Shown: positions 2,245 through 18,984 of the stretch, one piece after another
Position numbering within the stretch: the stretch's first letter is position 1
How the letters are laid out: each line of letters starts with the position of its first letter
Origin: Bacteroidota bacterium
GTDB lineage: Bacteria; Bacteroidota; Bacteroidia; Bacteroidales; CAIXZF01
DNA length: 64,000 nucleotides
Assembly (NCBI GenBank): GCA_022709385.1
Contig: JAKLIX010000008.1
Coordinates: 90,654 to 154,653, forward strand
Direction: 5' to 3'
The notes under the pieces: model-generated
Seen by the model: only the letters and a program-made list of their open reading frames with translations
Databases searched by the model: none
What the model was told of the DNA's origin: nothing
Program-made: the position numbers and the translations under genes

Positions 2245-2269
2245 CGAATATTTCACAATATTATAAGCC

Positions 2270-4395: not shown

Positions 4396-7300
4396 ATGAA
4401 GTCCCTCTCCCAACAACTCACAGTCCGCCCGTCTGTTTTTGACAAAAACCGAAGAGATGTGGTGCTCGACATTACCAACCTTATTGCTGGTCAGGTCGAT
4501 CCCGATGACTTTTTTAAAGAAAACTACATCACCAGGGGAATGCAGGATTTATACAGGGCAGTCTTTAAAAGACTTGAAGGCAACTCTGATGACGGATTGT
4601 TCCGACTCACTCAATCCATGGGAGGAGGCAAGACGCATAACATGATTGCCATAGGACTGCTGGCAAAATTTCCTGAATACCGTGAAAAGGTTATGGGTCA
4701 TATTTACAACACCACGCTGAAAGGCGGGGTCAATGTGATAGGATTCAGTGGAAGGGAAAAACCCGAGCTGGGAATCTGGGGCTACCTGGCAGAACAGCTG
4801 GGTAAAAAGGACATTTTTAAGAAGCGCTATGCTCCCCTGGAAGCTCCCGGACAGGAGGAATGGGAAGCCCTGCTTGCCAATGAGAAGCTGGTAATCATAC
4901 TGGATGAGTTGCCTCCTTACCTGGAAGGGGCCTATGGTAAAACTATCGGGGATTCAAACCTGGCCACAATTACCACCCAAGCCCTGAGTAACCTCTTTGT
5001 GGCCCTGGGGAAAAAGGAACTCAAGCAAGTAGTTGTCATTATCTCCGACCTGACTGCCAATTGGACACAGGGAAGTGAACTTATCGGTCAGATCGTTAAA
5101 AATCTGGAGGATGAAACCCACCGCGGGGCCAAACCCTTTACTCCTGTGGAGCAAACCGGTGATGAGATTTACAATATACTCAGGACCAGGATTTTTGACA
5201 ATCAGCCCAGCACTGAAGAGATTGAACCCATCGCCCTGGCATACGCTGCAATGATCAAGGAAGCCAAACAGATGGACATTACCACTGAAACTCCCGAACG
5301 CTTTGCCCAGGCAGTCAAAGACTCCTACCCTTTTCATCCTGCCATTAAAGACCTTTTCGCCCGCTTCAAGGAAAATCCGGGATTCCAGCAAACCCGTGGC
5401 CTGATCCGCTTAATGAGGACGATCGTATCCAGGATGTTTGATCCGGAAGAGGGCTGGGCAGGCAACAGTTACCTTATTGCTCCGTATGATCTTGATTTCA
5501 ATGATTCAGACACCCTGACTGAAATCGCCGGCATTAATTCTAAACTTACCAATGCCATCTCGCATGATATTTATGGAAACCCTTCTGCCGTAGCACAGAT
5601 ACTCGATGAGAAGTTTGATAACTCCCTGGCTTCTGATGCGGCCAAACTCATCCTTGTGTCTTCTCTGTCCGTGGTACAAAACGCCGTCAGGGGGCTTCAT
5701 GACTGGGAAATAATCCGCAACCTCTGCAAGCCGGGTGTTGAAATTTCGAAAGTAGCAGCAGAAATTCTGCCCGAACTCAAGAATACTTCCTGGTACCTTC
5801 ATATTGACAATACAGGGAAATTCCTTTACAAGGATGTCCAGAACGTCGTTGCCAAACTCAATGATTATATCAAAGGGTACAACCAGGAAAGCATCAAACT
5901 GGAAATCAAAGCCAAGCTACAAAGGATCTTCGAGCCAAAACTGAAGGATTGTTATCAAAAGGTATATGCATTACCAGCTCTCGACGAAATCGAGCCGGAA
6001 CAGTTTAAAACATCGCTCATTATCTATCAACCTTTTGCAGGCTCTGAGCTGCACCCCGACCTTGAAACTTTATTCAAAGATACCCAATGGCAGAACAGGG
6101 TTCTGTTTTTGACCGGCGATGCCCATTCTATGGCTTCTATTTTTGAGAATGCGGCAGGTCTGAAAGCCATTGATGCCATCCTGGGAGAATTTCGTTCAGA
6201 GAAGGTTCAACCCAATGATCCTCAGTTTATTGAAGCGGAAAAACTCAAAGAAACCTTCCTCTTCAAATTCAACAGTGCTGTCCGGGAAACTTTCGTCAAG
6301 ATATTCTACCCGACGAAAAACGGTCTCATGCCGGCAAATTTCCAGATGCAATTCAAGGATAATAATTTCGACGGCGAGGATCAGATCAAAAAGACACTGG
6401 TTGACAAAAGGAAATTCACAGAAGATATAAACTCTGATACCTTCCAGAAATATGTGGAAGGTAAATTATTCCACCCGCAGAAGACCCTGCCATGGAATGA
6501 GATCAAGAAAAAAGCAGCCACCAATACCGACTGGATCTGGCATAAGATGAATGCCCTGGACCAGTTGAAAGATGAATTAATCCTGAAAGATCTCTGGAGG
6601 GCCAACGGTGACTGGATTGAGATCGGTCCCTTTGAACCACCTAAAACCAGTGTGACTTACAGGATCATGAGCAGAAATGATGATACCGGCGAGGTTGCCC
6701 TGAAAATCATCCCCTCTCATGGTGACCGGGTACATTTTGAGATTGGTGACAAAGTTTCCACTGCCTCTCAGCAACTTGACCTGGCCCTACCCTTTAAGAC
6801 TTCCGAACTTAAAGCCACCTTCCTGTGTACCGACAGCAAAAATGTACACGAAACGGGTGACCCGCTGACGTTTAACAATACCATTACCCTTAAACACCGG
6901 TTTTTCCAGGATGATGACCGTCTGATGCTGGAATTGAAAGCAGCTCCGAAAGCTGACATCAGGTTCACGACCAACGGAAGTGACCCTTCCAATTCCGGAA
7001 AGCACTATGAAGGACCGGTGGCCATCCCCACTGGCGTCAGTTTCATTATTGCACTGGCGGAAAAGGATGGTATCAAGTCGGAGAAGAAGGAATACAAAGT
7101 CCCGGCAAGGGACCAGGGACCCTATGAGCCGATTAAAACAAAACCGGCCATCCTGAAAAGAAAGATCACCCGGCAGAGTACTTCAGAAACTTACGAATGG
7201 CTGAAGATGGTTAGCAAACACCGGATCATTCTGTCCGGGGTGACCTTTTCGATAAACGGGAAAAAATGGGCCAGCATTGATGTTTACCCTGAAATGCAGT

Positions 7301-7470
7301 TCGATCATGACAAGTTGAACACAGTACTGAGTTTCCTGAGGAATGAAATCCTCAACGAAGGAGAAATTGAACTATCGGCCCAGCAACTGCATTTTGAAAC
7401 AGGCCAGCTGTTATTGGATTATATCAGGGATACAAGAGACCAGTTAAAACCGAATGAAGTCGAACAATAA
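4396..7470 (+). CDS. DUF499-type P-loop ATPase (1024 aa)
   Basis: P-loop 'SMGGGKTHN' at nt 4621-4635 and Walker B-like 'VIILDELPPY'. The N-terminal layout and large size are typical of DUF499 proteins. It is the first gene of an overlapping gene chain. Confidence 0.8.
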   Translation: MKSLSQQLTVRPSVFDKNRRDVVLDITNLIAGQVDPDDFFKENYITRGMQDLYRAVFKRLEGNSDDGLFRLTQSMGGGKTHNMIAIGLLAKFPEYREKVMGHIYNTTLKGGVNVIGFSGREKPELGIWGYLAEQLGKKDIFKKRYAPLEAPGQEEWEALLANEKLVIILDELPPYLEGAYGKTIGDSNLATITTQALSNLFVALGKKELKQVVVIISDLTANWTQGSELIGQIVKNLEDETHRGAKPFTPVEQTGDEIYNILRTRIFDNQPSTEEIEPIALAYAAMIKEAKQMDITTETPERFAQAVKDSYPFHPAIKDLFARFKENPGFQQTRGLIRLMRTIVSRMFDPEEGWAGNSYLIAPYDLDFNDSDTLTEIAGINSKLTNAISHDIYGNPSAVAQILDEKFDNSLASDAAKLILVSSLSVVQNAVRGLHDWEIIRNLCKPGVEISKVAAEILPELKNTSWYLHIDNTGKFLYKDVQNVVAKLNDYIKGYNQESIKLEIKAKLQRIFEPKLKDCYQKVYALPALDEIEPEQFKTSLIIYQPFAGSELHPDLETLFKDTQWQNRVLFLTGDAHSMASIFENAAGLKAIDAILGEFRSEKVQPNDPQFIEAEKLKETFLFKFNSAVRETFVKIFYPTKNGLMPANFQMQFKDNNFDGEDQIKKTLVDKRKFTEDINSDTFQKYVEGKLFHPQKTLPWNEIKKKAATNTDWIWHKMNALDQLKDELILKDLWRANGDWIEIGPFEPPKTSVTYRIMSRNDDTGEVALKIIPSHGDRVHFEIGDKVSTASQQLDLALPFKTSELKATFLCTDSKNVHETGDPLTFNNTITLKHRFFQDDDRLMLELKAAPKADIRFTTNGSDPSNSGKHYEGPVAIPTGVSFIIALAEKDGIKSEKKEYKVPARDQGPYEPIKTKPAILKRKITRQSTSETYEWLKMVSKHRIILSGVTFSINGKKWASIDVYPEMQFDHDKLNTVLSFLRNEILNEGEIELSAQQLHFETGQLLLDYIRDTRDQLKPNEVEQ

Positions 7471-8086
7471 AAAAGGCCCCGTTCTTGACTTTGGTTTTAA
7501 CCCAAAGGACACGGAACATCATTTCCTGGTTTACATCAAACCCGGAGACAAAGAAGTGTATTTCTTTGAACAATTCTCCTTCACCGAGGATCAGGACTTT
7601 AGTGTACTCGCCTATACCATCAGCGGTCAGGGATCCACCTGCAAGTGCCTTCTGAATCATTCAAGATGGGATTTGATAAAAGCGGATGTAAGGGCCGAGT
7701 TCAACCGCAGGTTGAAAGAAATGGAGATCCCTTCATCCCAGTGGAAATCGAAGTACAACTATCTTCACCGCCTGCTGGGGAAAGAACTCCTGGTGCTGGC
7801 CTGGGCCATAGAGGAGGCAGATCCGGCCACCGTACCCCTGGCCATCCAAAACTGGCTTGGTTTAAAACCGGAAGAGCGCTGGTGGCTGTATACCATTACC
7901 AATGCTGCCACCGGGCATGCCATTAACGGCCGGGGCAAGGGATGGCGCAAGGCTTTACGCTTTGCCCTGACTGAAAACCCCGTCACACACGAGAAAATTG
8001 ACATGAACATCTACAAAGAATCCAATATTCTCAGCCTTTTTAAGGAAGACCCGGATTCTGAAACCCTCGGAAGCAAACATGAATAA
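7454..8086 (+). CDS. small protein in the DUF3780 position of DUF499/DUF1156 loci (DUF3780-like)
   Basis: The ORF is 210 aa. It overlaps the upstream gene by 17 nt and the downstream gene by 8 nt. The family call rests mainly on size and position, so the coding call is firmer than the family call. Confidence 0.6.
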   Translation: MKSNNKKGPVLDFGFNPKDTEHHFLVYIKPGDKEVYFFEQFSFTEDQDFSVLAYTISGQGSTCKCLLNHSRWDLIKADVRAEFNRRLKEMEIPSSQWKSKYNYLHRLLGKELLVLAWAIEEADPATVPLAIQNWLGLKPEERWWLYTITNAATGHAINGRGKGWRKALRFALTENPVTHEKIDMNIYKESNILSLFKEDPDSETLGSKHE

Positions 8087-10964
8087 ATCCTTCATAGAAA
8101 CCCAGTTCCCGGTTTCCAAAATATCAAAAGAGAGTTATAAAGAAAGAAAGGCCGGAGCCAGCCAGACGCTCACAGGACTGGGAAAATGGTGGGGACGAAA
8201 ACCCCTGGTGCTTGTACGTGCAACTATTCTGGGCCTCTTGATGCCATCTTCCGAAGACCCCAAAAAGGACAGGGAAATCTTCCTCAAACTGCTTACCATG
8301 GATGAAGAGGGTTTGCTCAGTAGAAAAGACAAAACCCTCTCTGCAAAGGAGTTGTTCCTTCATTCCCCGCAAAGCCTCAGAATCAGATATTTTGATCCTT
8401 CCTCCACAGTAGAAAAGGTAATCTGGCGAGATAACATCGGCAAAGAGGATACGGATGAACTTCAGGATAAGGTGTTTAAGGCTTTGAGCTATGACGACAA
8501 ACTGAAGTATTGCCTGAGGCCGGAGCATCTGGAAGGTCCTTCATCAGATACATGGGAAGAAATCAATGCCCATCTGAATACCTCAGCCCACTCCCTGCAA
8601 GAACTGGTCAACGAGCTGGGAATCCGGATTTTTGGTCACACACCAAGAATCGGGGATGCCTTCTGCGGCGGGGGATCCATACCTTTTGAAGCAGCCCGCC
8701 TGGGTTGTGACGTTTACGCCAGTGACCTGAACCCGGCTGCTGCACTGCTTACCTGGGCTTCCCTGAATATCATCGGCGGCGGCGAAAAAGTCCAGAAAGA
8801 AGTGCGTGAAGCTCAGGAAGAAGCCTTCCGGCTTGCCGACGGACAGATCACCGAATTGGGCATCGAACACAATGACAAGGGCTGGAGAGCTGATGCCTAC
8901 CTCTATTGCATAGAAGCAAGAAGCCCGAACAGCGGCTATTGGGTGCCACTTGCCCCGAGTTGGATCATATCAGAAAAATACAAGGTTTGTGCAGTTTTAC
9001 GGCCCGACCATGCCAATAAACGCTACCATATTGATATAGTTACTGATGCCGACAGTCAAACGTTCGCGAAGGCCAAACAGGGAACCATCCGGAATGGCGA
9101 ACTCATATGCCCGGAAGATCCCACAAAATCTTATGACATTTCCACCATCCGGGGTGACCGGAGAATGGATGGGGAAACCCGTTACGGTTTGAGACAATGG
9201 GAAAACGAAGATATAGTCCCTCGGCCCGAAGATGTCTTCCAGGAAAGGCTTTATTGCGTAAGGTACATAGGTCCTGATGGAAATCGCTATTATGTGGCAC
9301 CCGGCCCACGGGAATGGCAAAATGAAGAAAAGGTCCTTAATCTCATCCAAGAGAGATTTGAGGAATGGCAAGAGAAAGGATATATTCCCAGCTCGCTGAT
9401 TCCAGAAGGTGATAAAACAGAAGAACCAAAAAGAACCCGTGGTTGGACCCATTGGCATCATCTCTTTAATCCGAGGCAGTTGATTTACCATGGGCTTTTC
9501 ATGCAAAGCCTGATGGGAAAAGGCAACAATGAAAGACATCAAAAAGTCGGTGGCTGCATTTCTATTGGGGCTGCAATTGACAACCAATCAAGATTATGCG
9601 GATGGAATCCACATTTTTCAAAAGGCCCAGGTACCACAAGGAATGTATTTTTCAATCAGGCTTTGAACACACAGTATTATTATGGCACAAGAAGTTTTGG
9701 AGGAGTCCTCGATTTTTACCTCTCGGATCTACCGTATGAAAAAAAACTCACCCCTGAAATAAAAGTAGTGACATCTGATGCCCGGGAGAATCAGGACACT
9801 AATGAATTTTGGATCACTGACCCGCCCTATGCTGATGCAATCAATTATCATGAGCTTGGTGATTTCTTTTTAAGCTGGTATGAAAAGCATATAGGGAATA
9901 CTTTCCCAGAATGGTATTCGGAATCAAAAGCAGCATTAGCTGTCAAGGGGACGGGAAGTTCCTTTAACCAGAGTATGGTAGATTGCTACCAGAATTTCAC
10001 CCGGCATATGCCTGACAATGGTGCCCAGGTGGTCATGTTCACCCACCAGGACAGTCGGGTCTGGGCCGACCTGGCATTAATTTTATGGGCCTCGGGCCTC
10101 CAGGTCACAGCCGCCTGGACTATACAAACCGAGACCGATTCTGTAGGGATAAAATCAGGTAATTATGTGCAGGGTACCGTAATTATGGTCCTCAGGAAAC
10201 AGCAGACCAGCAATATTGCTTTTTTAAGCGACATCCAGGCGGATGTGGAATATGAGGTCAAGCAGGAACTCCGGAGCATGCTGGCCCTGGATGACCGGGA
10301 TGATCCCAATTTCGGGGATACGGATTACCAGCTTGCAGCCTATGTGGCTGCCTTGCGGGTAATTACGAGGTATAAAAAGATAGAAGACATTGATGTTCAC
10401 TACGAATTGAGCAGGGAAAGGCAGGCCGGGGAGGTCAGTGAGATCCAGGAGATCATCAAAAGTGCCGTGAAGGTTGCCTGTGAATACCTGGTACCCGGTG
10501 GCTTTGACGCTTCCGTGTGGAGACAACTCAGCGGCGAAGAACGCTTTTATCTCAAGGGCCTTGAAATCCAAAGCCATGGGGAATACCGGAATGGTGTATT
10601 CCAGGAACTTGCCCGTGGGTTCGGCCTGAGGGATTACAAACTGTTTCTGCAAACAGGTTCGGCCAATGAAACCCGGCTGGCCTCAGCTGTAGAGTTTAAC
10701 AATAAGGAGCTTCAAACCGAGGGATTCGGCAGTACGCTGGTCAGGCATGTTTTATTCGCCGTCAGGGAAACGCACAAGAACCAGTCTGCACGTTCCGGCC
10801 GGCAGTGGCTGTACAACGAGTTGCCCGATTATTGGGGGAGCCGCCTGCGGATCATCCATATTCTGGCCTACCTGCAAAGACTGGGCATCTATCTGGACAA
10901 CTGGCAGGATGATGTTTATGCAGCCCGGCTGTTGCAGGGCTATCTTGAAAATGATACGATATGA
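8079..10964 (+). CDS. DUF1156-domain DNA amino-methyltransferase (N6-adenine or N4-cytosine class)
   Basis: N-terminal DUF1156 signature 'ETQFPVSKISKESYKER...LTGLGKWWGRKPLVLVRA'. SAM motif I 'DAFCGGGSIPFEAARLG' starts at nt 8655. Catalytic motif IV 'DPPY' is at nt 9819-9830. Confidence 0.88.
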   Translation: MNKSFIETQFPVSKISKESYKERKAGASQTLTGLGKWWGRKPLVLVRATILGLLMPSSEDPKKDREIFLKLLTMDEEGLLSRKDKTLSAKELFLHSPQSLRIRYFDPSSTVEKVIWRDNIGKEDTDELQDKVFKALSYDDKLKYCLRPEHLEGPSSDTWEEINAHLNTSAHSLQELVNELGIRIFGHTPRIGDAFCGGGSIPFEAARLGCDVYASDLNPAAALLTWASLNIIGGGEKVQKEVREAQEEAFRLADGQITELGIEHNDKGWRADAYLYCIEARSPNSGYWVPLAPSWIISEKYKVCAVLRPDHANKRYHIDIVTDADSQTFAKAKQGTIRNGELICPEDPTKSYDISTIRGDRRMDGETRYGLRQWENEDIVPRPEDVFQERLYCVRYIGPDGNRYYVAPGPREWQNEEKVLNLIQERFEEWQEKGYIPSSLIPEGDKTEEPKRTRGWTHWHHLFNPRQLIYHGLFMQSLMGKGNNERHQKVGGCISIGAAIDNQSRLCGWNPHFSKGPGTTRNVFFNQALNTQYYYGTRSFGGVLDFYLSDLPYEKKLTPEIKVVTSDARENQDTNEFWITDPPYADAINYHELGDFFLSWYEKHIGNTFPEWYSESKAALAVKGTGSSFNQSMVDCYQNFTRHMPDNGAQVVMFTHQDSRVWADLALILWASGLQVTAAWTIQTETDSVGIKSGNYVQGTVIMVLRKQQTSNIAFLSDIQADVEYEVKQELRSMLALDDRDDPNFGDTDYQLAAYVAALRVITRYKKIEDIDVHYELSRERQAGEVSEIQEIIKSAVKVACEYLVPGGFDASVWRQLSGEERFYLKGLEIQSHGEYRNGVFQELARGFGLRDYKLFLQTGSANETRLASAVEFNNKELQTEGFGSTLVRHVLFAVRETHKNQSARSGRQWLYNELPDYWGSRLRIIHILAYLQRLGIYLDNWQDDVYAARLLQGYLENDTI

Positions 10965-12649
10965 CAGAAGCTCAGATTAGAACATATCTTTCTCAAGGCG
11001 AGGGACTCAGAATTGAATTCAAAAAATCAAGGCTGGCCTTACCTGGCAACTTGTTTGAGAGTGTTTGCTCATTTCTGAACCATAGTGGAGGGACAATCTT
11101 GCTTGGCGTTGATAATGATGGCAGCTTTGAAGGTGTAGATAGAACTACGCTTGACAAACTGATGGACAACGTTGCAACCCTATCCAATAATCCTGAATTT
11201 CTTGACCCGCCGTTCCTCCTGTTCCCGATCAAACATGAAATTGACGGGGAGAATATTATTGTTATTCAAGTCCCGGAAAGCTCACAAGTACACAAGTTTA
11301 AAGGTATAGTTTTTGACAGAAGCAGGGACGGGGATTTTAAAGTGATTAAGCCTGAAAGAATCGCTGAAATTGCAAACCGGAAAAGAAACCTGTTTACTGA
11401 AGGCAGAATATTGCCTTTCCTTGAATATAAACATTTCAGGGAAGACCTGTTTGAAAAAGCCAGGGCACTGATTCGTTCAAGAAAACCAGATCATCCATGG
11501 CTTTTGTTTGATAACCCGACATTACTCGAAAAAGCGGGCCTTTATAAAACTGACCTTCAGACCGGCGAAGTGGGCTATACCCTTGCTGCTTTGTTATTGT
11601 TTGGAAGAAATGAATTCATTGAAAGCACACTTCCGGCGCTAAAAATTGATGCACTTGTCAGAATAGAAAATACTGATCGCTATGACGACCGGGATGAAAT
11701 CAGGCATACTAACCTGATAGAAGCATATGAAAGGTTAATGGCGTTTGTCGGCAAACACCTCCCGGATAAGTTCCACCTGGAAAACGGGCAAAATGTAAGT
11801 TTAAGGGACATTATCTTCAGGGAAGTTATTGCAAATATCCTGGTGCACAGGGAATATACCCATGCGATGCCAACCACATTTGTCATTTATCAGGATAGGG
11901 TTGAAACTCTCAATCCGAATAATCCACATTTCCATGGGTTAATTCTACCCGAAAAAGTGGTTCCCTTCCCTAAGAATCCTGCCATATCAAAATTCTTTAT
12001 TCAATTGGGCAGGGTTGAAGAATTAGGATCAGGGGTTATGAATGTCAGTAAGTACCTACCCCATTACACCCAGGGTGCATTACCACAGTTTATTGAAAAT
12101 GATGTATTTACGACGATTATACCGCTTAAGGTGCACACACTTGGGGCGTTAGCAAAGGAATTTTTGAGGGCCATTCTGCCCGGGCACATACAAGCAGAAG
12201 AGGTGCTTACATTGCTTACAAGTCTCCAGATCACATCAGAAATTGCAAAAGAAGCCCACGATCCTGGCCTGTTGTTTTATCGATTGGGAGTATGCTGGAT
12301 GGAAAAAGGGCTTAAGCTGCTTAGAGATAAAGATCATGATATCAGCAAACTAACAAAAGAAGAAGAAATAAAGGGACTAAGCTGGGAGGAAAAAGGGACT
12401 AAGCTGATCGAAAAAGGACTGTTAAACATGGTTCAGATTCTGATACTATGTTTAAGGGAAAAAAGTTTACAGGAACTGGCTGATATCACGGGGTATTCAA
12501 ACAGATCGAAATATAAATCCTCCTATATTGACCCGTTAGTTAACTATAGGTTAATAGAATTAACCATTCCGGACAAACCAAAGTCCCCTGCCCAAAAATA
12601 TAAAACAACCGTTGCAGGAAGGTATTTCCTTGGAGGTGGACAAATTTAA
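10961..12649 (+). CDS. Schlafen/AlbA_2 (divergent AAA_4) + HATPase_c_4-like + C-terminal wHTH protein
   Basis: N-terminal 'YLSQGEGLRIEFKKS...ESVCSFLNHSGGTILLGVDNDG' is typical of AlbA_2. Mid-protein 'REVIANILVHREY' is the HATPase-like part. C-terminal 'PDKPKSPAQKYKTTVAGRYFL' is a typical wHTH tail. The start overlaps the methylase stop (ATGA). Confidence 0.8.
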   Translation: MTEAQIRTYLSQGEGLRIEFKKSRLALPGNLFESVCSFLNHSGGTILLGVDNDGSFEGVDRTTLDKLMDNVATLSNNPEFLDPPFLLFPIKHEIDGENIIVIQVPESSQVHKFKGIVFDRSRDGDFKVIKPERIAEIANRKRNLFTEGRILPFLEYKHFREDLFEKARALIRSRKPDHPWLLFDNPTLLEKAGLYKTDLQTGEVGYTLAALLLFGRNEFIESTLPALKIDALVRIENTDRYDDRDEIRHTNLIEAYERLMAFVGKHLPDKFHLENGQNVSLRDIIFREVIANILVHREYTHAMPTTFVIYQDRVETLNPNNPHFHGLILPEKVVPFPKNPAISKFFIQLGRVEELGSGVMNVSKYLPHYTQGALPQFIENDVFTTIIPLKVHTLGALAKEFLRAILPGHIQAEEVLTLLTSLQITSEIAKEAHDPGLLFYRLGVCWMEKGLKLLRDKDHDISKLTKEEEIKGLSWEEKGTKLIEKGLLNMVQILILCLREKSLQELADITGYSNRSKYKSSYIDPLVNYRLIELTIPDKPKSPAQKYKTTVAGRYFLGGGQI

Positions 12650-12660
12650 ATGACTCATTA

Positions 12661-15378
12661 ATGATCAACCGATATTCTTCAAGGACACTGCCGCTGGATG
12701 AGAGCTTATTAAATGCTAGGCTTCTCAATGCGAAATCTTATGACCGGGTGGCTGGGTACTTCAGCTCTTCTATCCTTGAAATTGCCGGTGAATCCATCAA
12801 CTCCATTCAAGGGACCGTCAGGATCATCTGTAATTCCGAGATGGAGGAAGCAGATGTGGTCACGGCACGGGCTGCGGAAATGTCGATGAAACGGGAATGG
12901 TGCAACAGTATAGACACCAGGCTGAATTACACCGGAACCGACCGGTTTTCAAAACTATACTCCTTACTTACCTCCAATAAAATTGAAGTGAGGGTTCTGC
13001 CCTCCACTACTTTCGGGCTGATTCACGGGAAAATAGGCGTTGTCACAGGATCTGACGGAAAAAAGATGGCTTTTATCGGCAGCACCAATGAAACTTATGC
13101 TGCCTGGCGGATGAACTACGAGGTTGTTTGGGAAGACGATTCCCCGGAGGCAGTGGAATGGGCACAATCAGAATTTGATGCGTTGTGGCAGCATCCTCAT
13201 GTTACCCGATTATCTGATTTTATTATACAGGACATCGGCAGGATCGCAAAAAGAAAGATCATAAACCTGGATTCCTGGCAGGCCATTAAGCAACCGGCCA
13301 GTGTCGTAGTGGAGAGCCCTGTTTACAGATCCGAATACGGTTTATGGGCACACCAGAAGTATTTTGTAAAAAAGGCTTTTGACGATCATCTTTCAGGAAA
13401 GGGAGCCCGTTACTTATTAGCCGACCAGGTTGGACTTGGAAAGACCGTTCAACTTGCCTTATCGGCTCAACTCATGGCCCTGACCGGAAGCAAGCCGGTA
13501 CTGATTATTGTACCCCGCACCCTGCTATTTCAATGGCAGGATGAAATGAATAATCTCCTTGCCATGCCATCAGCTGTTTGGGACGGCAAACAATGGAATG
13601 ATGAGAACGGGGTAAAATATCCTTCAATCGGACCGGAATCCATCAGCAAATGTCCGCGCCGCGTTGGTATTGTAAGCCAGGGATTGATTACCCGGAAAAG
13701 CGAAGCTGCCTCCGCCCTTTTGAATATTGAATATGAATGTATTATCCTGGATGAATGTCACCGGGCCAGGAGAAAGAACCTAAAGGCAGATGCAGAGAAT
13801 GAACCTGTCAATCCGAACAACCTGTTGGCATTCTTATTCAAAATTGCTTCGCAAACGAAGAACCTTCTCATAGCCACGGCAACGCCTGTACAGTTATTTC
13901 CCATTGAGGCGTATGATTTGCTCGATGCCCTCAGCCGAAGCAATGACCACGTACTTGGTAACGTATTTTCCCTCTGGAAGAAAGACAAAAAACTTATCCT
14001 CGATCTGGTAACGGAGAAACAGGATCCTCCAATGAGCTTCAGTTCAATGTGGGAATGGGTAAGGAATCCTTTTCCGGCTACATCAGAAAATGACCAGTTA
14101 TTTGGCTCAATCCGTCGTAGATTGAATATGTCAGATAAAGACGCTGTCGTTGAAGGAAACAGGGAAATCGAAATGAAACCGGCCGATAAAAACAAGATTG
14201 AACGGCTGGGTAAGGAATTCTTCACTCTGTACAACCCCTTTATCAGGCATATTGTGAGAAGGACAAGGGAATTTCTGGAAAATGAAAACGATCCTTCGAC
14301 CGGTGAACCCTACCTGAAAAAGGTTGAAGTTACCCTCTTTGGTGAGGATAGCAAAGACGCTATCCTCTTACCAGGCTACCTGAGAGATGCCTACGAATCA
14401 GCGGAAGAGTTTTGCAGACTTCTTGGAGAACGAATGAAATCGGCGGGATTTATGAAGACCATGCTTCTCAGGCGGATGGGAAGTTCCCTCGAAGCCGGCA
14501 AAAATACAACCATGAAGATCCTTGGGAACTTGTCAGAGGAAATCTTCCAGGAAGAAGATGATAATGAATCAAGTGAAGAGGAAAATATGGTGCTGGAACA
14601 GGAGGTTTCTTCCCTCACGGCATCCCTGACCAATAAGGAAAAAGAAGTCCTTCAATTATTGCTCAGGCAATTAGAAAAACACCAGGATAAAGATCCTAAA
14701 TACTTCAAGATCAAAGAATTCTTGTTCGACCGGGGCTGGATGGAGTCGGGTTGTATCCTGTTTTCTCAATATTTCGACACCTGCTGGTATATGGCAAACC
14801 AGCTTTCATCTGAACTGAAAGACATTTCAATCGGCGTGTATGCAGGGGGGAATAAATCAGGACTGCTGATTAAAGGCATATTTACGCCCTACACCCGGGA
14901 AGACTTGAAAAAGATGGTCCAGGCAGGCAAGATCAGACTCCTGTTCGGAACAGATGCTGCAAGTGAAGGTTTAAACTTACAGAAACTCGGAACATTGATC
15001 AATATTGACCTTCCCTGGAACCCAACCCGTCTGGAACAACGCAAGGGCCGGATTCAACGCATCGGACAAATCAGGGATAAAGTGCTTATTTACAACATGC
15101 GCTATAAAGACTCCATTGAAGACAAGGTGCATGGGATACTATCGAGCCGGTTAAAGAAGATCTACGATATGTTCGGGCAATTACCAGATGTGCTGGAGGA
15201 TGTTTGGATTGAGGCAGCACAGGGGCATATCGAGAAGGCCAACGAGATCATTGATGCCATCCCCAACCAGCATCCGTTTGAGATGAAATACAACAAAGTC
15301 GAGCAAATCGACTGGGAGAGCTGCTCGGAGGTTTTGAATGAGGTGGAGAGAAGAGAAATACTAAATAAATCCTGGTAA
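12661..15378 (+). CDS. PLD-family (HKD) nuclease domain fused to an SNF2-type helicase
   Basis: N-terminal 'GLIHGKIGVV...FIGSTNET' (H-x-K ... G-S-x-N) at nt 13024-13095. SNF2 motif I 'DQVGLGKT' at nt 13432-13446. Motif II 'LDECH' at nt 13750-13761. Motif VI 'EQRKGRIQRIGQ'. Confidence 0.88.
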   Translation: MINRYSSRTLPLDESLLNARLLNAKSYDRVAGYFSSSILEIAGESINSIQGTVRIICNSEMEEADVVTARAAEMSMKREWCNSIDTRLNYTGTDRFSKLYSLLTSNKIEVRVLPSTTFGLIHGKIGVVTGSDGKKMAFIGSTNETYAAWRMNYEVVWEDDSPEAVEWAQSEFDALWQHPHVTRLSDFIIQDIGRIAKRKIINLDSWQAIKQPASVVVESPVYRSEYGLWAHQKYFVKKAFDDHLSGKGARYLLADQVGLGKTVQLALSAQLMALTGSKPVLIIVPRTLLFQWQDEMNNLLAMPSAVWDGKQWNDENGVKYPSIGPESISKCPRRVGIVSQGLITRKSEAASALLNIEYECIILDECHRARRKNLKADAENEPVNPNNLLAFLFKIASQTKNLLIATATPVQLFPIEAYDLLDALSRSNDHVLGNVFSLWKKDKKLILDLVTEKQDPPMSFSSMWEWVRNPFPATSENDQLFGSIRRRLNMSDKDAVVEGNREIEMKPADKNKIERLGKEFFTLYNPFIRHIVRRTREFLENENDPSTGEPYLKKVEVTLFGEDSKDAILLPGYLRDAYESAEEFCRLLGERMKSAGFMKTMLLRRMGSSLEAGKNTTMKILGNLSEEIFQEEDDNESSEEENMVLEQEVSSLTASLTNKEKEVLQLLLRQLEKHQDKDPKYFKIKEFLFDRGWMESGCILFSQYFDTCWYMANQLSSELKDISIGVYAGGNKSGLLIKGIFTPYTREDLKKMVQAGKIRLLFGTDAASEGLNLQKLGTLINIDLPWNPTRLEQRKGRIQRIGQIRDKVLIYNMRYKDSIEDKVHGILSSRLKKIYDMFGQLPDVLEDVWIEAAQGHIEKANEIIDAIPNQHPFEMKYNKVEQIDWESCSEVLNEVERREILNKSW

Positions 15379-15418
15379 ATAATAATTTTAAGTAAACATC
15401 ATCACAAAATACATCATT

Positions 15419-16366
15419 ATGAGCAAGATAATATTTATGAGAATTGCCTGGATGAAATTCTATAAGGGGAATACCAAGCAAGATAAACCTATAGGTGCAG
15501 GAGCATATGTTCAAGAAAATGAAGATGGCGGTGAAGTTTGCAATTTCCTTGATATAAATGGCTTGTGCTATGGATATGCAAGAATGCCCCCAGGCAGGAA
15601 TATTGATATTAAGCGAGAAGGAGCCAGCCCATTTGACACATCAGTAAATGATGTAGATGTAATCTTTATTGCGACAAATCCGAAAGATGGTGGTCAGTAT
15701 ATTGTTGGATTTTACAATAATGCTATTGTTTATAAGAAACCTCAAACAATAAAAAACAAGAAACGTGGAAACCACAATAACTATGTTTGCTTATGTCCTT
15801 CAAAATCAGCATTTCTTGTATCTGAAAAAGATAGGGTATATGATATCACCGGTGCTGGGCAAGCTAATATCTGGCATGCCAGTGAGTACTTAACTAACAC
15901 TGAGTTACGAAGATTGACAACTTATCTTCTCAAAGTTAAAGGATCATTGCAAACGGCACGTAAATCTTCAGGTAGCTTTAATTCGAATATAAAAGCTAAC
16001 GCTGAAGCTGAGATGAAGGCGATGGAGTATGTAAAGCAATATTTCGAAAGCAATGAATTTAAGGTAATAGATATTCACAAGGATAATTTAGGTTGGGATT
16101 TTACTGCTATCAAAAATACAGTTGAGTACCAACTCGAGGTCAAAGGATTGTCTGGGAACTTCACCTCAATTGATCTGACACCCAATGAATTTGATAAGAT
16201 GGAAAACAAAAAATCAACCTATCTAGTTTGTATTGTTTCAAATCTTGGAACCGGGGAGGCACCAAAATTGGATTTAATTTCCTATTATGGTAGTACTCTC
16301 AAATCGGACAGTGGCATCGAAATGAAGATTACTAAAATTATTGGTGCAAGAATTTCAAGAAAATAA
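15419..16366 (+). CDS. two-domain protein: unknown N-terminal domain + DUF3883-type (restriction-endonuclease-fold) C-terminal domain
   Basis: C-terminal 'EAEMKAMEYVKQYF...GWDFTAI...YQLEVKGLSG...IDLTPNEF...YLVCIV' fits the DUF3883/NOV_C nuclease-fold pattern. I do not recognise the first ~190 aa. The gene is very AT-rich. Confidence 0.65.
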   Translation: MSKIIFMRIAWMKFYKGNTKQDKPIGAGAYVQENEDGGEVCNFLDINGLCYGYARMPPGRNIDIKREGASPFDTSVNDVDVIFIATNPKDGGQYIVGFYNNAIVYKKPQTIKNKKRGNHNNYVCLCPSKSAFLVSEKDRVYDITGAGQANIWHASEYLTNTELRRLTTYLLKVKGSLQTARKSSGSFNSNIKANAEAEMKAMEYVKQYFESNEFKVIDIHKDNLGWDFTAIKNTVEYQLEVKGLSGNFTSIDLTPNEFDKMENKKSTYLVCIVSNLGTGEAPKLDLISYYGSTLKSDSGIEMKITKIIGARISRK

Positions 16367-16389
16367 TCATATCAATTTCAAGGACTTTT

Positions 16390-18351
16390 ATGAAAATTTC
16401 AACTGTACTTGACCATATCGATAATGGGCACATGGCCCTCCCGGAATTTCAACGAGGATATGTTTGGAACCGGGAACAGGTCAGAGGCCTCTTCGACTCA
16501 CTTTATAGACGACATCCAATCGGTGGCTTACTTGTGTGGGCAACTGAATCACAAAGTGCTGAACACAGAGGGGATGGAGAGCTGGCAGCTGGTATTGTAA
16601 AATTACTGCTCGATGGTCAACAGCGGATGACTACATTATATGGGGTTATAAGGGGAAAAGCACCAAAGTTCTTTGATGGAAATGCAGCAACTTTCACAGG
16701 ACTTTTCTTTCATCTTGAAAATGAAATATTTGAATTTTATCAACCTTTGAAGATGAAGGATGATAAGTTGTGGATAGATGTCACGCAATTGATGAAAAAA
16801 GGAGATGAAGGCCTGGGCGAAATAATTGCAAGATTGTCCCAACAAGCGGAATTTGTTGCAAAAACAGGTGAGCATGTTGGAAAGTTAGCTAAGTTACTTG
16901 GTATAAGGGAAGTAGATCTTCATGTTGAAGAAGTGACCGGATCGGACAAAACCATTGATATAGTGGTAGAAATTTTTAATAGAGTTAACAGCGGTGGAAC
17001 AAAATTATCGAAAGGAGATCTGGCTCTTGCCAAGATTTGTGCAGAGTGGCCGGATGCCCGGGAGAAAATGAAAGAGAAATTAAAAGTTTGGGAGAACATT
17101 GGTTATCACTTTAGTCTGGATTGGCTATTGCGTTCTGTTAATACAGTTATCACAGGTGAAGCTAAGTTCCTGTACCTGCATGATAAAAATCCAGCAGAGG
17201 TGCAAAATGGATTAGAAAGAGCAGGTAGGCACCTGGATTCATGCCTGAATATGATCAGTGGAAGACTCGGTTTGGATCACGACCAGGTATTGTTCAGCCG
17301 GTATTCTTTGCCAGTCATGGTGCGGTATCTTGACAAACGAAATGGCCTGCTTGATGCAAAAGAAAGAGATAAACTGCTATTCTGGTTTGTTCAGGCAGGA
17401 ATGTGGGGGCGATTTTCGGGTTCGACTGAATCAATAATCGACAAGGATCTGGAAGTTCTAGAATATGGTGATAACATGCTGGATAATTTATTGGAGAATT
17501 TGCGGATGTGGCACTCCGGATTAAGAATTGAACCGTATCATTTCACCGGTTGGAGCTTGGGTGCGAGGTTTTATCCGGTTTTGTATATGCTCACCAGGAT
17601 GGGAGAAGCAAGGGACTGGGGGAATGGACTTCCGCTAAAAGCACATCTTCACGGTAAAATGAGCAAACTGGAAGTTCATCACATTTTTCCTAAAGCAAAG
17701 CTTTACAAACATAACAATACTGGTTACAAACGACCCGAGGTAAACGCTTTAGCAAACTATTGTTTCCTGACTAAAGAGACCAATCTACTAATTAGTGATA
17801 GATTTCCTGAAGAATATTTCCCGGAAATTGAGCAGAACCACCCAGGAGCTCTTGCCTCTCAATGGATCCCACAAGACCCAAATCTTTGGAAAACAGATAA
17901 CTACCTTGAATTCCTTGAAGCACGGAAAATCCTGATTGCAAATGAAGCCAATAGACAAATGGAAGATCTTCTTCATGGTGAATTACATTGGATGGATACA
18001 TCCGCCCCAGCAATTTCATTAACTGAGACCATTGGTGGTGGAATAACGACTGAGAAAGAAGAAGAAGAACTAAATGAAGTCAATAATTGGATCGCTGCAT
18101 TAGGATTGCCTCGCGGCACTTTACTTTTCGAATATTATGATCCTATGGGAAATCAATTGAAGGCAGTTTTTGATCTGGCCTGGCCTTCAGGATTACAGGA
18201 AGAACTTAGTCAACCAGTTGCAATACTACTGAATGAAAACGATGAACTTGTAAAATTTGCCCTCGAATCCGGTTATAAGTGCTTCACTAACATTTCAGAT
18301 TTCAAGCGATATATCAACAGTGACATTCTTGTCATGGAAATTGAATTGTAA
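16390..18351 (+). CDS. GmrSD-family protein (DUF262 N-terminal + DUF1524 HNH-like C-terminal), type IV restriction-like
   Basis: DUF262 motifs 'LPEFQRGYVW' (nt 16441-16467) and 'DGQQR' (nt 16612-16626). DUF1524 His-Me motif 'LEVHHIFPK...NALANYCFLTKETN' starts near nt 17671. About 150 extra C-terminal residues follow. Confidence 0.85.
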   Translation: MKISTVLDHIDNGHMALPEFQRGYVWNREQVRGLFDSLYRRHPIGGLLVWATESQSAEHRGDGELAAGIVKLLLDGQQRMTTLYGVIRGKAPKFFDGNAATFTGLFFHLENEIFEFYQPLKMKDDKLWIDVTQLMKKGDEGLGEIIARLSQQAEFVAKTGEHVGKLAKLLGIREVDLHVEEVTGSDKTIDIVVEIFNRVNSGGTKLSKGDLALAKICAEWPDAREKMKEKLKVWENIGYHFSLDWLLRSVNTVITGEAKFLYLHDKNPAEVQNGLERAGRHLDSCLNMISGRLGLDHDQVLFSRYSLPVMVRYLDKRNGLLDAKERDKLLFWFVQAGMWGRFSGSTESIIDKDLEVLEYGDNMLDNLLENLRMWHSGLRIEPYHFTGWSLGARFYPVLYMLTRMGEARDWGNGLPLKAHLHGKMSKLEVHHIFPKAKLYKHNNTGYKRPEVNALANYCFLTKETNLLISDRFPEEYFPEIEQNHPGALASQWIPQDPNLWKTDNYLEFLEARKILIANEANRQMEDLLHGELHWMDTSAPAISLTETIGGGITTEKEEEELNEVNNWIAALGLPRGTLLFEYYDPMGNQLKAVFDLAWPSGLQEELSQPVAILLNENDELVKFALESGYKCFTNISDFKRYINSDILVMEIEL

Positions 18352-18393
18352 TTATGGGTCACATATTGCCATCAAAGGTCTTTTCGTGAATAG

Positions 18394-18627
18394 ATCCACG
18401 CTGCCTACCAAAGCCAGTGGTCACGCTATGCTGCATTCGACGCAAACATCCCCGGCATCAACCCTGATTACCATACCTCCGTCCGGAAAGATGTTCTTGA
18501 AGAAATTGACGGACCCATGCTCAAATACGGCATATAATCACTGGATAAACAAAGGATCATTCTTCCAGGGAGAAAAGCCGACTGGCCGGATAGAAACCGC
18601 CTGAAACCAGGTTCTCAGAATTCCTGA
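18394..18627 (+). pseudogene. possible start-less gene remnant with one in-frame stop
   Basis: This frame reads protein-like: 'IHAAYQSQWSRYAAFDANIPGINPDYHTSVRKDVLEEIDGPMLKYGI*SLDKQRIILPGRKADWPDRNRLKPGSQNS*'. It has no start codon and an in-frame TAA at 18535. It lies between the last island gene and tRNA-Val. I do not recognise the family. Confidence 0.25.
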
Positions 18628-18664
18628 ATAGAATATAACTCACACCCTCACTCTCACCCGCTTG

Positions 18665-18739
18665 TGGGTTGTACTGGACTCGAACCAGTGGCCCCCGCCC
18701 TGTCAAGGCGATGCTCTGAACCAACTGAGCTAACAACCC
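18665..18739 (-). tRNA. tRNA-Val (anticodon GAC)
   Basis: The reverse complement folds as a cloverleaf. Acceptor stem is GGGTTGT/ACAACCC, the D-arm is GCTC..GAGC, the anticodon loop is TTGACAG, the T-arm is ACTGG-TTCGAGT-CCAGT, and the discriminator is A. Confidence 0.9.
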
Positions 18740-18810
18740 CTATTTTAATTTCCAATTAGCAACACGCTCACGCTCAATCTCGCTCTCACTCTCACTCTCA
18801 CTCTGTTTCT

Positions 18811-18865
18811 CCCCCGCCCTGTCATCCCGCACGTGCGGGACTGAACCAACTGAGCTAACAACCCC
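18811..18865 (-). pseudogene. truncated tRNA-Val-like fragment with a 16-nt palindromic replacement
   Basis: It keeps the tRNA 5' acceptor strand, the D-arm 5' half, and the anticodon-loop/3' stem segment. 10 nt of the tRNA (AGCATCGCCT) are replaced by TCCCGCACGTGCGGGA (nt 18825-18840). The T-arm and 3' acceptor strand are missing. Confidence 0.7.
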
Positions 18866-18929
18866 TATTTTAATTTCCAATTAGCAACACGCTCACGCTC
18901 GCTCTCACTCTCGCTCTCACTCTGCTTCC

Positions 18930-18984
18930 CCCCCGCCCTGTCATCCCGCACGTGCGGGACTGAACCAACTGAGCTAACAACCCC
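18930..18984 (-). pseudogene. second truncated tRNA-Val-like fragment, same structure
   Basis: Nearly identical to 18811-18865. The palindrome is at nt 18944-18959. Confidence 0.7.

What the first reader, a model, noticed from the sequence alone, without database searches (positions are those of the whole stretch)
12661..15378. Single-HKD PLD nuclease fused N-terminally to an SNF2 ATPase
Seen in sequence: one polypeptide carries 'HGKIGVV...GSTNET' at residues 122-145, followed by a complete SNF2 core (GLGKT, DECH, QRKGRIQRIGQ). Only one HKD half-site is present. The usual Asp four residues after the Lys reads Thr.

Established knowledge: PLD-family nucleases with a single HKD (Nuc and BfiI types) form the active site by dimerisation. 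In DISARM the PLD (DrmC) and SNF2 (DrmD) functions are on separate proteins.

Inference: this is a translocase-coupled nuclease whose cleavage requires two converging or dimerising motors.
Basis: partly seen in the sequence, partly recalled or inferred. Interest (0 to 1): 0.6.

Follow-up and report, generated by a model that had tools for sequence, protein, structure and literature searches.

The report
MtsD nuclease-helicase of a MANTIS operon
The gene is an ordinary member of an already described anti-phage family, the PLD-nuclease/SNF2-ATPase effector MtsD of the methylation-based MANTIS (Gao_RL, Type-2 BREX-related) system, and it sits in a complete MANTIS operon inside a defence island of a Bacteroidales genome.

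Summary
ORF 12661-15378 (+) encodes a 905-aa protein with a single HKD half-site (HGK 122-124, GSTN 140-143, Thr129 where Asp is usual) followed by a full SNF2 core.

It is also already published. The protein passes NCBIfam equivalog NF042964, "phospholipase D-like domain-containing anti-phage protein", at 1257 bits against a cut-off of 1100. It matches PADLOC PLD_Helicase end to end.

It is the last core gene of a DUF499 ATPase, DUF3780, DUF1156 N6-methyltransferase, PLD-helicase operon. That operon is Gao_RL (2020), also called the Type-2 BR system (NAR 2026) and MANTIS (bioRxiv, Sept 2026).

The MANTIS preprint reports a 2.2 Å cryo-EM MtsD dimer whose two PLD domains build one active site with catalytic H122, the same residue number as here. 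Restriction is lost in H122A and Walker A mutants, and inverted target sites are preferred.

DISARM is the wrong frame. Thr129 is the family consensus, not a defect.

Two points are local. A Schlafen-type gene is embedded between mtsC and mtsD, and a NOV_C nuclease and a GmrSD-like gene lie downstream. Both kinds of add-on are already described. Interest is low.

The parts
4396..7470 (+). mtsA: DUF499 AAA+ (ORC/Cdc6-type) ATPase, 1024 aa. Walker A GGGKT at residue 76, Walker B ILDE at 168, FnIII-like region near 845-895.
   Evidence: PADLOC DUF499 model 654 bits end to end. Pfam DUF499 plus Fn3_assoc. NCBIfam DUF499_antiphage is the top hit at 795 bits, below its 1200 cut-off. 29% identity, collinear over the full length with the E. 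coli HB-Coli0 homologue. Motif positions.
7454..8086 (+). mtsB: DUF3780 protein, 210 aa. This is the gene that marks the Type-2 BR/MANTIS subtype. It overlaps mtsA by 17 nt.
   Evidence: Pfam DUF3780 E 1.4e-47. PADLOC DUF3780. NCBIfam DUF3780_antiphage 156 bits, below its 200 cut-off. 38% identity to the E. coli homologue.
8079..10964 (+). mtsC: DUF1156 N6-adenine DNA methyltransferase, 961 aa. AdoMet motif FCGGG at residue 195, catalytic DPPY at 581. It overlaps mtsB by 8 nt.
   Evidence: NCBIfam DUF1156_antiphage 1348 bits, above its 1000 cut-off. PADLOC DUF1156_MTase 944 bits. 37% identity, collinear with the E. coli homologue. Motifs.
10961..12649 (+). Embedded accessory gene, 562 aa: Schlafen/AlbA_2 domain, HATPase_c_4 (minimal histidine-kinase-like) domain and a C-terminal wHTH (Fic-like_C). 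It overlaps mtsC by 4 nt and ends 11 nt before mtsD.
   Evidence: Pfam hits. The same architecture is described as a backup effector linked to BREX/BR loci in at least 1017 taxa (PMC12839542 section 35). Homologues occupy the same mtsC-mtsD gap in L014, L015 and L029; in L032 and L035 one lies just upstream of mtsD, but mtsC is off those short contigs. Among the gap-encoded ORFs, 7-8 of 52 carry these domains.
12661..15378 (+). mtsD: PLD-nuclease/SNF2-ATPase effector, 905 aa. This is the finding.
   Evidence: 38% identity end to end with the annotated E. coli HB-Coli0 protein. AF2 full-length model pLDDT 81.2.
12727..13188 (+). PLD (HKD) nuclease domain of MtsD, residues 23-176.
   Evidence: Pfam PLDc_2 E 1.4e-13. 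AF2 N-domain model pLDDT 83.8. Foldseek top hits are all PLD superfamily, with SauUSI giving the best TMq of 0.52.
13024..13095 (+). Single HKD half-site: H122-G-K124 ... T129 ... G140-S-T-N143-E-T.
   Evidence: Positions. H122, K124, G140, S141 and N143 are invariant in 55 family members. E144 is E in 51 and D in 4. Position 129 is T in 33, E in 9, R in 7 and never D.
13342..15195 (+). SNF2/RapA-like SF2 ATPase core of MtsD: motif I GLGKT 258-262, motif II DECH 364-367, motif III TATP 406-409, motif VI QRKGRIQRIGQ 793-803.
   Evidence: Pfam SNF2-rel_dom, ResIII and Helicase_C. Best PDB sequence and fold matches are RapA. The motifs are invariant in alignment A1.
15419..16366 (+). Downstream accessory gene, 315 aa, with a NOV_C (DUF3883, PD-(D/E)xK-type) domain. 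Candidate motif GWDF at residue 225 and EVK at 240. It starts 40 nt after mtsD.
   Evidence: Pfam NOV_C E 1.8e-12. It also matches the C-terminal part (positions 1024-1131) of the PADLOC HmaA model. No homologue was found next to MtsD in the 80 other loci.
16390..18351 (+). Downstream accessory gene, 653 aa: GmrSD-like (DUF262 N-domain with DGQQR at residue 75; HHIFP at 430).
   Evidence: Pfam GmrSD_N E 1.1e-27. PADLOC HEC-05 (Hma-embedded candidate) E 1.9e-45. A 70%-identical copy lies downstream of MtsD in L009.

Best explanation
The 905-aa protein is MtsD, the restriction effector of a MANTIS system (also called Gao_RL or Type-2 DUF499-centred BREX-related system).

The operon is mtsA (AAA+ ATPase), mtsB (DUF3780), mtsC (N6-adenine methyltransferase), an embedded Schlafen-type gene, then mtsD.

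The likely mechanism is taken from the characterised P. aeruginosa system:
1. MtsA and MtsB load MtsC onto a short asymmetric recognition site.
2. Host sites are hemimethylated and so marked as self.
3. On unmodified DNA, the site-bound MtsABC complex recruits a pre-formed MtsD homodimer.
4. The two single-HKD PLD domains of the dimer build one composite, metal-independent active site (His122, Lys124 and Asn143 from each chain).
5. The SNF2-type motors use ATP to move the dimer along DNA.
6. Cleavage follows when it meets another site-bound complex, most efficiently between inverted sites.

What is shown here: identity, architecture, PLD fold, conservation of catalytic and ATPase residues, and operon membership. 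What is taken from the literature for the family: the dimer, loss of restriction in H122A and Walker A mutants, dependence on MtsABC, and the site-orientation preference. What remains inferred even in the literature: translocation and the collision trigger.
For: **Family assignment**
- NCBIfam NF042964 equivalog: 1256.9 bits, above the 1100 cut-off, aligned 1-905.
- PADLOC PLD_Helicase: 778 bits, end to end.
- 38% identity and full collinearity with the E. coli HB-Coli0 protein, annotated in a four-gene DUF499/DUF3780/DUF1156/PLD operon. The three partner proteins are also collinear.

**Operon**
- The four core genes overlap or abut, with gaps of -17, -8, -4 and +11 nt.
- The A-B-C-D order recurs in loci from many bacterial phyla and from Methanosarcina and Methanolobus.

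**PLD fold and residues**
- The N-domain model matches only PLD-superfamily structures, including SauUSI, NgoAVII, Nuc, NucT and Zucchini.
- H122, K124, G140, S141 and N143 are invariant across 55 members.
- The SNF2 motifs are invariant across 50 members.

**Literature**
- MtsD cryo-EM dimer with one PLD site and catalytic H122. Loss of restriction in H122A, Walker A and all MtsA/B/C mutants. Preference for inverted sites (bioRxiv 10.64898/2026.09.23.753747).
- HKD-helicase fusion catalogued in 921 taxa (PMC12839542).
Against: - No one has yet detected nuclease activity of purified MtsD in vitro, and no stable MtsD-MtsABC complex was seen. Cleavage by the PLD site is supported by mutant phenotypes and structure only.
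- Nothing was tested on this particular ortholog, which is only 38% identical to the E. coli protein.
- MtsA and MtsB here score below the NCBIfam equivalog cut-offs (795 against 1200; 156 against 200). The sensing part is therefore more divergent than the effector.
- The dimer could not be modelled with the tools available.
- The extra genes in and after the operon could modify how the system works here.
Confidence: 0.88

Rival explanations
1. It is a DISARM-type module in which DrmC (PLD) and DrmD (SNF2) have fused. This is the frame the first reader used.
For: The helicase half gives partial hits to DrmD models: PADLOC DrmD 139 bits and NCBIfam DISARM_DrmD 161.7 bits. DISARM also combines a PLD protein, an SNF2 protein and a methyltransferase (established knowledge).
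Against: The DrmD score of 161.7 is far below its 610 cut-off and covers only residues 624-866. No DrmA or DrmB (DUF1998) gene is present. The neighbours are DUF499, DUF3780 and a DUF1156 methyltransferase. The dedicated MtsD-family model wins by more than 1000 bits.
Confidence: 0.02
2. It is an autonomous SauUSI-like Type IV enzyme that recognises and cuts modified DNA by itself. The adjacent methyltransferase would belong to something else.
For: SauUSI is the best structural match of the PLD domain by TM-score (7clg, TMq 0.52). It is also the only PDB sequence hit of the N-domain (E 0.04). It has the same PLD-then-SF2-motor order and dimerises through its PLD domains (PMC7913695).
Against: The protein ends at residue 905, after the family's conserved C-terminal region that follows the motor. 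Pfam finds no domain there, and no SauUSI-type target-recognition domain was detected. The motor is SNF2/RapA-like. The gene is tightly linked to mtsA-B-C across phyla. In P. aeruginosa, restriction needs MtsA, B and C, and specificity follows the MtsC TRD.
Confidence: 0.04
3. The PLD domain is a non-catalytic dimerisation or DNA-clamping module, as in FAM83 and TrmBL2. DNA damage would then be done by other nucleases in the locus, such as NOV_C, GmrSD-like or Schlafen.
For: MtsD nuclease activity has not been reconstituted in vitro. Non-catalytic PLD-like domains (FAM83/BJ-TSA-9, TrmBL2) are among the top fold matches. The canonical Asp of HKD is missing. This locus carries three extra nuclease-type genes.
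Against: H122, K124, G140, S141 and N143 are invariant over 55 divergent members, which is hard to explain without catalysis. H122A abolishes restriction in P. aeruginosa. The canonical four-gene system restricts without these extra nucleases: 28 of 64 loci have no insert between mtsC and mtsD, and the E. coli operon has four genes. The NOV_C gene is not conserved next to MtsD.
Confidence: 0.06

Closest known systems
MtsD of MANTIS (P. aeruginosa AZPAE15024), equal to RL_D of Gao_RL (E. coli; Gao et al. 2020 Science 369:1077) and to the HKD-helicase of Type-2 BR systems (PMC12839542)
   Same: Same length class (905 against 907 aa in E. coli). Same order of PLD domain then SNF2/SF2 motor. The catalytic His is at the same number (H122). 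Same Walker A and B motifs. Same operon partners in the same order: DUF499, DUF3780, DUF1156 MTase. It passes the NCBIfam equivalog made for this family.
   Different: Only 38% identical to the E. coli protein. No MtsR (Arc/CopG) repressor gene is visible upstream, where 147 nt separate the preceding gene from mtsA. A Schlafen-type gene is inserted between mtsC and mtsD. NOV_C and GmrSD-like genes follow. The host is a Bacteroidales MAG.
SauUSI, an ATP-dependent Type IV restriction enzyme of S. aureus (PDB 7CLG; PMC7913695)
   Same: N-terminal single-HKD PLD nuclease followed by an SF2 motor. It is a dimer held by the PLD domains. ATP-driven translocation is coupled to cleavage. It is the best TM-score match of the N-domain model.
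   Different: SauUSI carries its own C-terminal target-recognition domain for 5mC and 5hmC and works alone on modified DNA. MtsD has no such domain, is targeted by MtsABC and restricts unmodified DNA. The motor here is SNF2/RapA-like, with family-specific inserts.
HmaA, the helicase of Hma / Type-1 BR systems (PMC11232893)
   Same: A homologous SNF2 motor in a DUF499-ATPase plus N6-methyltransferase defence operon. That operon also tolerates embedded defence genes.
   Different: HmaA carries its nuclease at the C-terminus (PD-(D/E)xK nickase) and an N-terminal TUDOR domain. It has no PLD domain, and its operon has no DUF3780 gene. The HmaA model matches only residues 623-901 here (123 bits).
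DISARM DrmD (SNF2) plus DrmC (PLD)
   Same: It combines an SNF2 ATPase, a PLD nuclease and a methyltransferase in a methylation-based defence.
   Different: The two are separate proteins. The partners differ (DrmA, and DrmB with DUF1998). DrmD models score far below cut-off here.
Nuc, BfiI and NgoAVII single-HKD nucleases
   Same: One HKD half-site per chain, with the active site formed by a homodimer. The chemistry is metal-independent through a covalent His intermediate (established knowledge).
   Different: These are small stand-alone nucleases, or nucleases fused to DNA-binding domains, without a fused motor. NgoAVII uses a separate ATPase subunit.

Membership tests
MtsD (MANTIS / Gao_RL / Type-2 BR HKD-helicase) | Whole-protein score above the curated cut-off of the family's equivalog model (NCBIfam NF042964) | tested here: met
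   1256.9 bits against a cut-off of 1100. Protein residues 1-905 align to model positions 2-895 of 895. PADLOC PLD_Helicase gives 778 bits end to end.
MtsD (MANTIS / Gao_RL / Type-2 BR HKD-helicase) | N-terminal HKD/PLD nuclease domain in place of the TUDOR domain, followed by a Swi2/Snf2-type ATPase | tested here: met
   PLDc_2 at residues 23-176, SNF2-rel_dom at 251-425, Helicase_C at 698-802, and no TUDOR hit. PLD fold confirmed. Motor is RapA-like.
MtsD (MANTIS / Gao_RL / Type-2 BR HKD-helicase) | Encoded with a DUF499 AAA+ ATPase, a standalone DUF3780 protein and a DUF1156 N6-methyltransferase, in that order | tested here: met
   Genes at 4396-7470, 7454-8086 and 8079-10964. All are collinear with the E. 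coli HB-Coli0 operon. The same order is seen in related loci.
MtsD (MANTIS / Gao_RL / Type-2 BR HKD-helicase) | Catalytic His of the PLD motif (H122 in P. aeruginosa MtsD) and Walker A Lys present | tested here: met
   H122 and K261 are present and invariant in the family. H122 is named as catalytic in the preprint.
MtsD (MANTIS / Gao_RL / Type-2 BR HKD-helicase) | Homodimer in which two PLD domains form one active site | not testable with these tools
   Only monomer prediction was available. The full-length monomer model has pLDDT below 50 at residues 142-153, next to the GSxN motif. This is compatible with an interface but does not prove one.
MtsD (MANTIS / Gao_RL / Type-2 BR HKD-helicase) | Restriction of unmodified phage or plasmid DNA that depends on MtsABC, with hemimethylation of an asymmetric 6-bp site | not testable with these tools
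   This needs methylome data or expression experiments.
PLD superfamily, single-HKD nuclease type (Nuc/BfiI) | HxK(x)4D(x)6GSxN motif | tested here: inconclusive
   H122, K124 and GSTN 140-143 are present. The Asp position is Thr129. The whole MtsD family lacks Asp there (T, E or R), and so does the aligned SauUSI sequence. The catalytic His, Lys and Asn are kept.
PLD superfamily, single-HKD nuclease type (Nuc/BfiI) | PLD alpha/beta fold | tested here: met
   Foldseek on the N-domain model gives 33 PDB hits with E <= 1e-3. The named ones are all PLD-superfamily or PLD-like folds: NgoAVII, SauUSI, NucT, Nuc, Zucchini, F13, PLD, Tdp1 and PPK.
SNF2 family ATPase | SNF2-related N-lobe and Helicase_C lobe with motifs I, II, III and VI | tested here: met
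   SNF2-rel_dom scores 42.1 bits (cut-off 24.9) and Helicase_C 53.6 bits (cut-off 23.5). Motifs located. RapA is the top match in the PDB.
DISARM (DrmD / DrmC) | DrmD equivalog score, and DrmA plus DrmB (DUF1998) in the locus | tested here: not met
   DISARM_DrmD scores 161.7 bits against a cut-off of 610, a partial match only. No DrmA or DrmB domain appears among the neighbours.
Hma / Type-1 BR helicase HmaA | C-terminal PD-(D/E)xK nuclease fused to the SNF2 helicase, and an operon without DUF3780 | tested here: not met
   The HmaA model matches only residues 623-901 (123 bits). No C-terminal REase domain is present, and DUF3780 is present in the operon.
SauUSI-type Type IV restriction enzyme | C-terminal target-recognition domain for modified cytosine, and autonomous action | tested here: not met
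   No domain is detected after the motor in Pfam or NCBIfam, and the protein ends at residue 905. The gene is tightly linked to a methyltransferase operon.

The most novel reading that the evidence does not exclude
The Schlafen/mini-histidine-kinase/wHTH gene at 10961-12649 overlaps mtsC by 4 nt and ends 11 nt before mtsD. It may not be passive cargo. It could be a wired-in second effector that reads the state of the MANTIS complex, for example firing tRNA or RNA cleavage when MtsD-mediated restriction is blocked by a phage inhibitor.

More broadly, the mtsC-mtsD junction carries an insert in 36 of 64 loci. It could act as a dedicated docking site for such backup effectors and could be mined for new defence genes.
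Probability: 0.15. Interest if true: 0.45.

Novelty: new member of a known kind. Interest (0 to 1): 0.15.

Why it matters
It matters little as a discovery. The fusion, its operon, its anti-phage role and even the dimeric single-active-site architecture are already in the literature and in NCBI's and PADLOC's annotation models.

The practical value is modest:
- The locus is a clean, complete Bacteroidota example of MANTIS.
- MtsD nuclease activity has not yet been reconstituted in vitro for any member, so divergent orthologs such as this one (38% identical to E. coli) are candidates for biochemistry.
- The locus illustrates that the mtsC-mtsD junction is a frequent insertion point for accessory effectors.

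Tried and rejected
- **Full-length AF2 model against the PDB.** The SNF2 core swamped the result, and only RapA and chromatin remodellers were listed. A separate N-domain model was needed to test the PLD fold.
- **PDB sequence searches with the protein and with a family profile.** No MtsD structure is in the copy. The N-domain gave only weak hits: SauUSI E 0.04, NucT 0.079, Zucchini 0.28.
- **Promoter and terminator scan of 1400-19700.** The counts were close to those of shuffled sequence (promoter-like 45 against 29 +/- 5; terminator-like 27 against 20 +/- 5). The + strand terminator-like sites lie inside genes or in the flanking DNA. The sigma-70 consensus is also not appropriate for Bacteroidota. 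This says nothing about operon boundaries.
- **Search for an MtsR (Arc/CopG) gene upstream of mtsA.** Only 147 nt separate the AbiLii gene from mtsA, which leaves no room for an ORF.
- **DISARM, Hma/Type-1 BR and autonomous SauUSI-like readings.** All were considered and rejected on the membership tests.
- **Dimer modelling.** This was not possible with the single-chain predictor.
- **Identity of the E. coli comparator.** I did not verify that the HB-Coli0 operon is the REBASE entry (EcoHBIV) that the preprint lists among MANTIS systems. The link is inferred from the strain name only.
Full report
**Observation**

The window has one uninterrupted reading frame at 12661-15378 on the + strand, 905 codons from an ATG.
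- HGKIGVV 122-128
- GSTNET 140-145
- GLGKT 258-262
- DECH 364-367
- QRKGRIQRIGQ 793-803

The only other H-x-K string is HQK 231-233, inside the helicase N-lobe. Pfam reports a single PLDc_2 domain at residues 23-176 (E 1.4e-13), followed by SNF2-rel_dom (251-425), ResIII and Helicase_C (698-802). One HKD half-site fused in front of a complete SNF2 core is therefore real and far beyond chance. Thr129 does stand where the canonical HKD motif has Asp.

**What it is**

The protein matches two curated family models over its whole length:
- PADLOC "PLD_Helicase": 778 bits, protein 1-905 against model 2-905.
- NCBIfam equivalog NF042964, "phospholipase D-like domain-containing anti-phage protein": 1256.9 bits, above the curated cut-off of 1100.

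The identical sequence is already in NCBI from a Bacteroidales MAG. It recurs on 17 contigs with the same neighbours.

The three genes directly upstream, on the same strand, overlap one another by 17, 8 and 4 nt:
- a DUF499 AAA+ ATPase (4396-7470)
- a DUF3780 protein (7454-8086)
- a DUF1156 N6-adenine methyltransferase (8079-10964; FCGGG at residue 195, DPPY at 581)

[quoted passage not shown] 2020. It was classified as the Type-2 DUF499-centred BREX-related (BR) system in PMC12839542, where the HKD-helicase fusion is reported in 921 taxa. It was renamed MANTIS (MtsA-D) in bioRxiv 10.64898/2026.09.23.753747.

As a direct check, I retrieved an annotated four-gene operon from E. coli HB-Coli0. 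All four window proteins align end to end with their E. coli counterparts:
- MtsD 38% identity
- MtsC 37%
- MtsA 29%
- MtsB 38%

That this E. coli operon is the REBASE entry (EcoHBIV) listed among MANTIS systems in the preprint is my inference from the strain name only.

**Is the PLD domain a competent nuclease domain?**

An AlphaFold2 model of residues 1-215 has mean pLDDT 83.8. Searched against the PDB, it returned 33 hits at E <= 1e-3, and the named ones are PLD-superfamily or PLD-like folds:
- NgoAVII R-protein
- SauUSI (best TM-score, 0.52)
- NucT, Nuc, Zucchini
- vaccinia F13, PLDs, Tdp1, polyphosphate kinase

I then aligned 55 full-length family members, including 34 representatives from a 50%-clustered library of 1.8 billion proteins, down to about 35% identity. 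His122, Lys124, Gly140, Ser141 and Asn143 are invariant, and Glu144 is Glu or Asp.

Position 129 is Thr in 33 members, Glu in 9, Arg in 7 and never Asp. The "missing Asp" is therefore a family trait, not a lesion in this copy. The aligned SauUSI sequence lacks it too.

The SNF2 motifs I, II, III and VI are invariant in 50 homologues. The motor is closest to RapA in both sequence and fold.

**How it most likely works**

The preprint reports the following for the P. aeruginosa system:
- MtsC hemimethylates an asymmetric 6-bp site, but only when loaded by the AAA+ ATPase MtsA and stimulated by MtsB.
- MtsD H122A and Walker A mutants lose restriction.
- Swapping the MtsC target-recognition region switches specificity.
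- Inverted site pairs give strong restriction. Direct repeats and single sites give weak restriction.
- A 2.2 Å cryo-EM structure shows an MtsD dimer. The motors form the base and the two PLD domains join to form one active site, with the H122 side chains facing a channel.

The authors propose a SauUSI-like model. The dimer is loaded by MtsABC, tracks along DNA and cleaves on meeting another site-bound complex.

Two limits remain:
- Nuclease activity of purified MtsD has not been reconstituted, and no stable MtsD-MtsABC complex was seen.
- Nothing has been measured for this ortholog.

The DISARM comparison is misleading. DrmD models score far below cut-off (161.7 against 610) and cover only part of the motor. 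No DrmA or DrmB is present.

**Context and local peculiarities**

A scan of one genome per species returned 80 loci from many bacterial phyla and from methanogenic archaea. The mtsA-mtsB-mtsC-mtsD order is conserved.

In 28 of 64 informative loci, mtsC and mtsD are at most 81 bp apart. In the other 36 there is a 0.2-3.6 kb insert.

The window belongs to the second class. Its 562-aa insert (10961-12649) has a Schlafen/AlbA_2 domain, a HATPase_c_4 domain and a C-terminal wHTH. PMC12839542 describes exactly this architecture as a backup RNase linked to BREX/BR loci in at least 1017 taxa.

A Pfam census of 51 ORFs from the inserts of 33 loci, plus the window's own insert, found the following:
- the same Schlafen/HATPase_c_4 type most often (7-8 members)
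- AAA_21/RloB pairs
- Mrr
- HEPN-nucleotidyltransferase pairs
- DUF3800
- PIN/DUF5615
- ParE

Nearly all are on the operon strand.

Downstream of mtsD lie a NOV_C (PD-(D/E)xK-type) gene and a GmrSD-like gene that matches PADLOC HEC-05. Upstream is an AbiLi/AbiLii (AAA_21 + RloB) pair. The whole region from about 1 to 18351 is a defence island. It is followed by ordinary Bacteroidota-type genes, including a DPP-IV peptidase and an outer-membrane efflux protein.

**Novelty and verdict**

Observation: confirmed. Interpretation: supported, apart from the DISARM framing and the unrecognised dependence on the upstream operon.

This is an ordinary new member of a known, named and partly structurally characterised family. 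The embedded and flanking accessory genes are of kinds already described. Interest is low.

The most novel reading not excluded is functional coupling between the embedded Schlafen-type effector and the MANTIS core. I rate it unlikely (about 0.15) and of moderate interest if true.

Noticed in passing
window 10961-12661; loci L004-L083: The junction between mtsC and mtsD is an insertion hotspot. 36 of 64 related loci carry a 0.2-3.6 kb insert there. Almost all embedded ORFs are on the operon strand. They encode Schlafen/HATPase_c_4 proteins, AAA_21+RloB pairs, Mrr, HEPN-NTase pairs, DUF3800, PIN/DUF5615 and ParE. Some loci (L004, L006) also have a roughly 3 kb insert between mtsB and mtsC.
   Followed up: partly
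window 2270-4248; L004 7996-10001; L005 2748-4756: The AbiLi/AbiLii (AAA_21 + RloB) pair lies upstream of mtsA in the window. Its 50-56% identical homologues in the two closest Saprospiraceae loci sit between mtsC and mtsD instead. The same cargo therefore occupies different slots around the operon.
   Followed up: partly
window 15419-16366: The standalone 315-aa NOV_C/DUF3883 protein starts 40 nt after mtsD. It also matches the C-terminal nuclease region (positions 1024-1131) of the PADLOC HmaA model. That is the domain fused to the helicase in Type-1 BR/Hma systems. It has a plausible D...ExK motif (GWDF 225, EVK 240). No homologue was found beside MtsD in the 80 other loci.
   Followed up: partly
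window 16390-18351; L009 8243-10183: The GmrSD-like protein (PADLOC HEC-05) has a 70%-identical copy downstream of MtsD in a Terriglobia MAG, where MtsD itself is only 56% identical. This suggests the accessory gene moves between MANTIS loci independently of the core.
   Followed up: no
window 1-1476: The ORF listed as 199-1476 is open in frame from base 1. It is the 3' part of a larger gene cut by the window start. It has a Helicase_C lobe followed by about 320 residues with no family match in Pfam or PADLOC. It may be part of a further defence gene.
   Followed up: partly
window 4396-8086: MtsC and MtsD pass their NCBIfam equivalog cut-offs. MtsA (795 bits against 1200) and MtsB (156 against 200) do not, and MtsA is only 29% identical to the E. 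coli protein. The sensing and loading parts therefore diverge faster than the effector.
   Followed up: no
window 13084-13119 (MtsD residues 142-153): In the full-length monomer AF2 model, the segment right after the GSxN motif has pLDDT below 50, while the rest of the PLD domain is confident. In the isolated N-domain model this block averages 64, with no run below 50. This would fit a loop that is ordered only at the dimer interface or active site.
   Followed up: no
plasmid records H1-H12 (e.g. NZ_CP087953.1, L084): MtsD homologues occur on 27 plasmids, including seven Acinetobacter (baumannii in all those listed) plasmids and conjugative replicons. On the Desulfosarcina plasmid, an 'ATP-binding protein' is again embedded between mtsC and mtsD, and a TIR-domain gene follows mtsD.
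   Followed up: no
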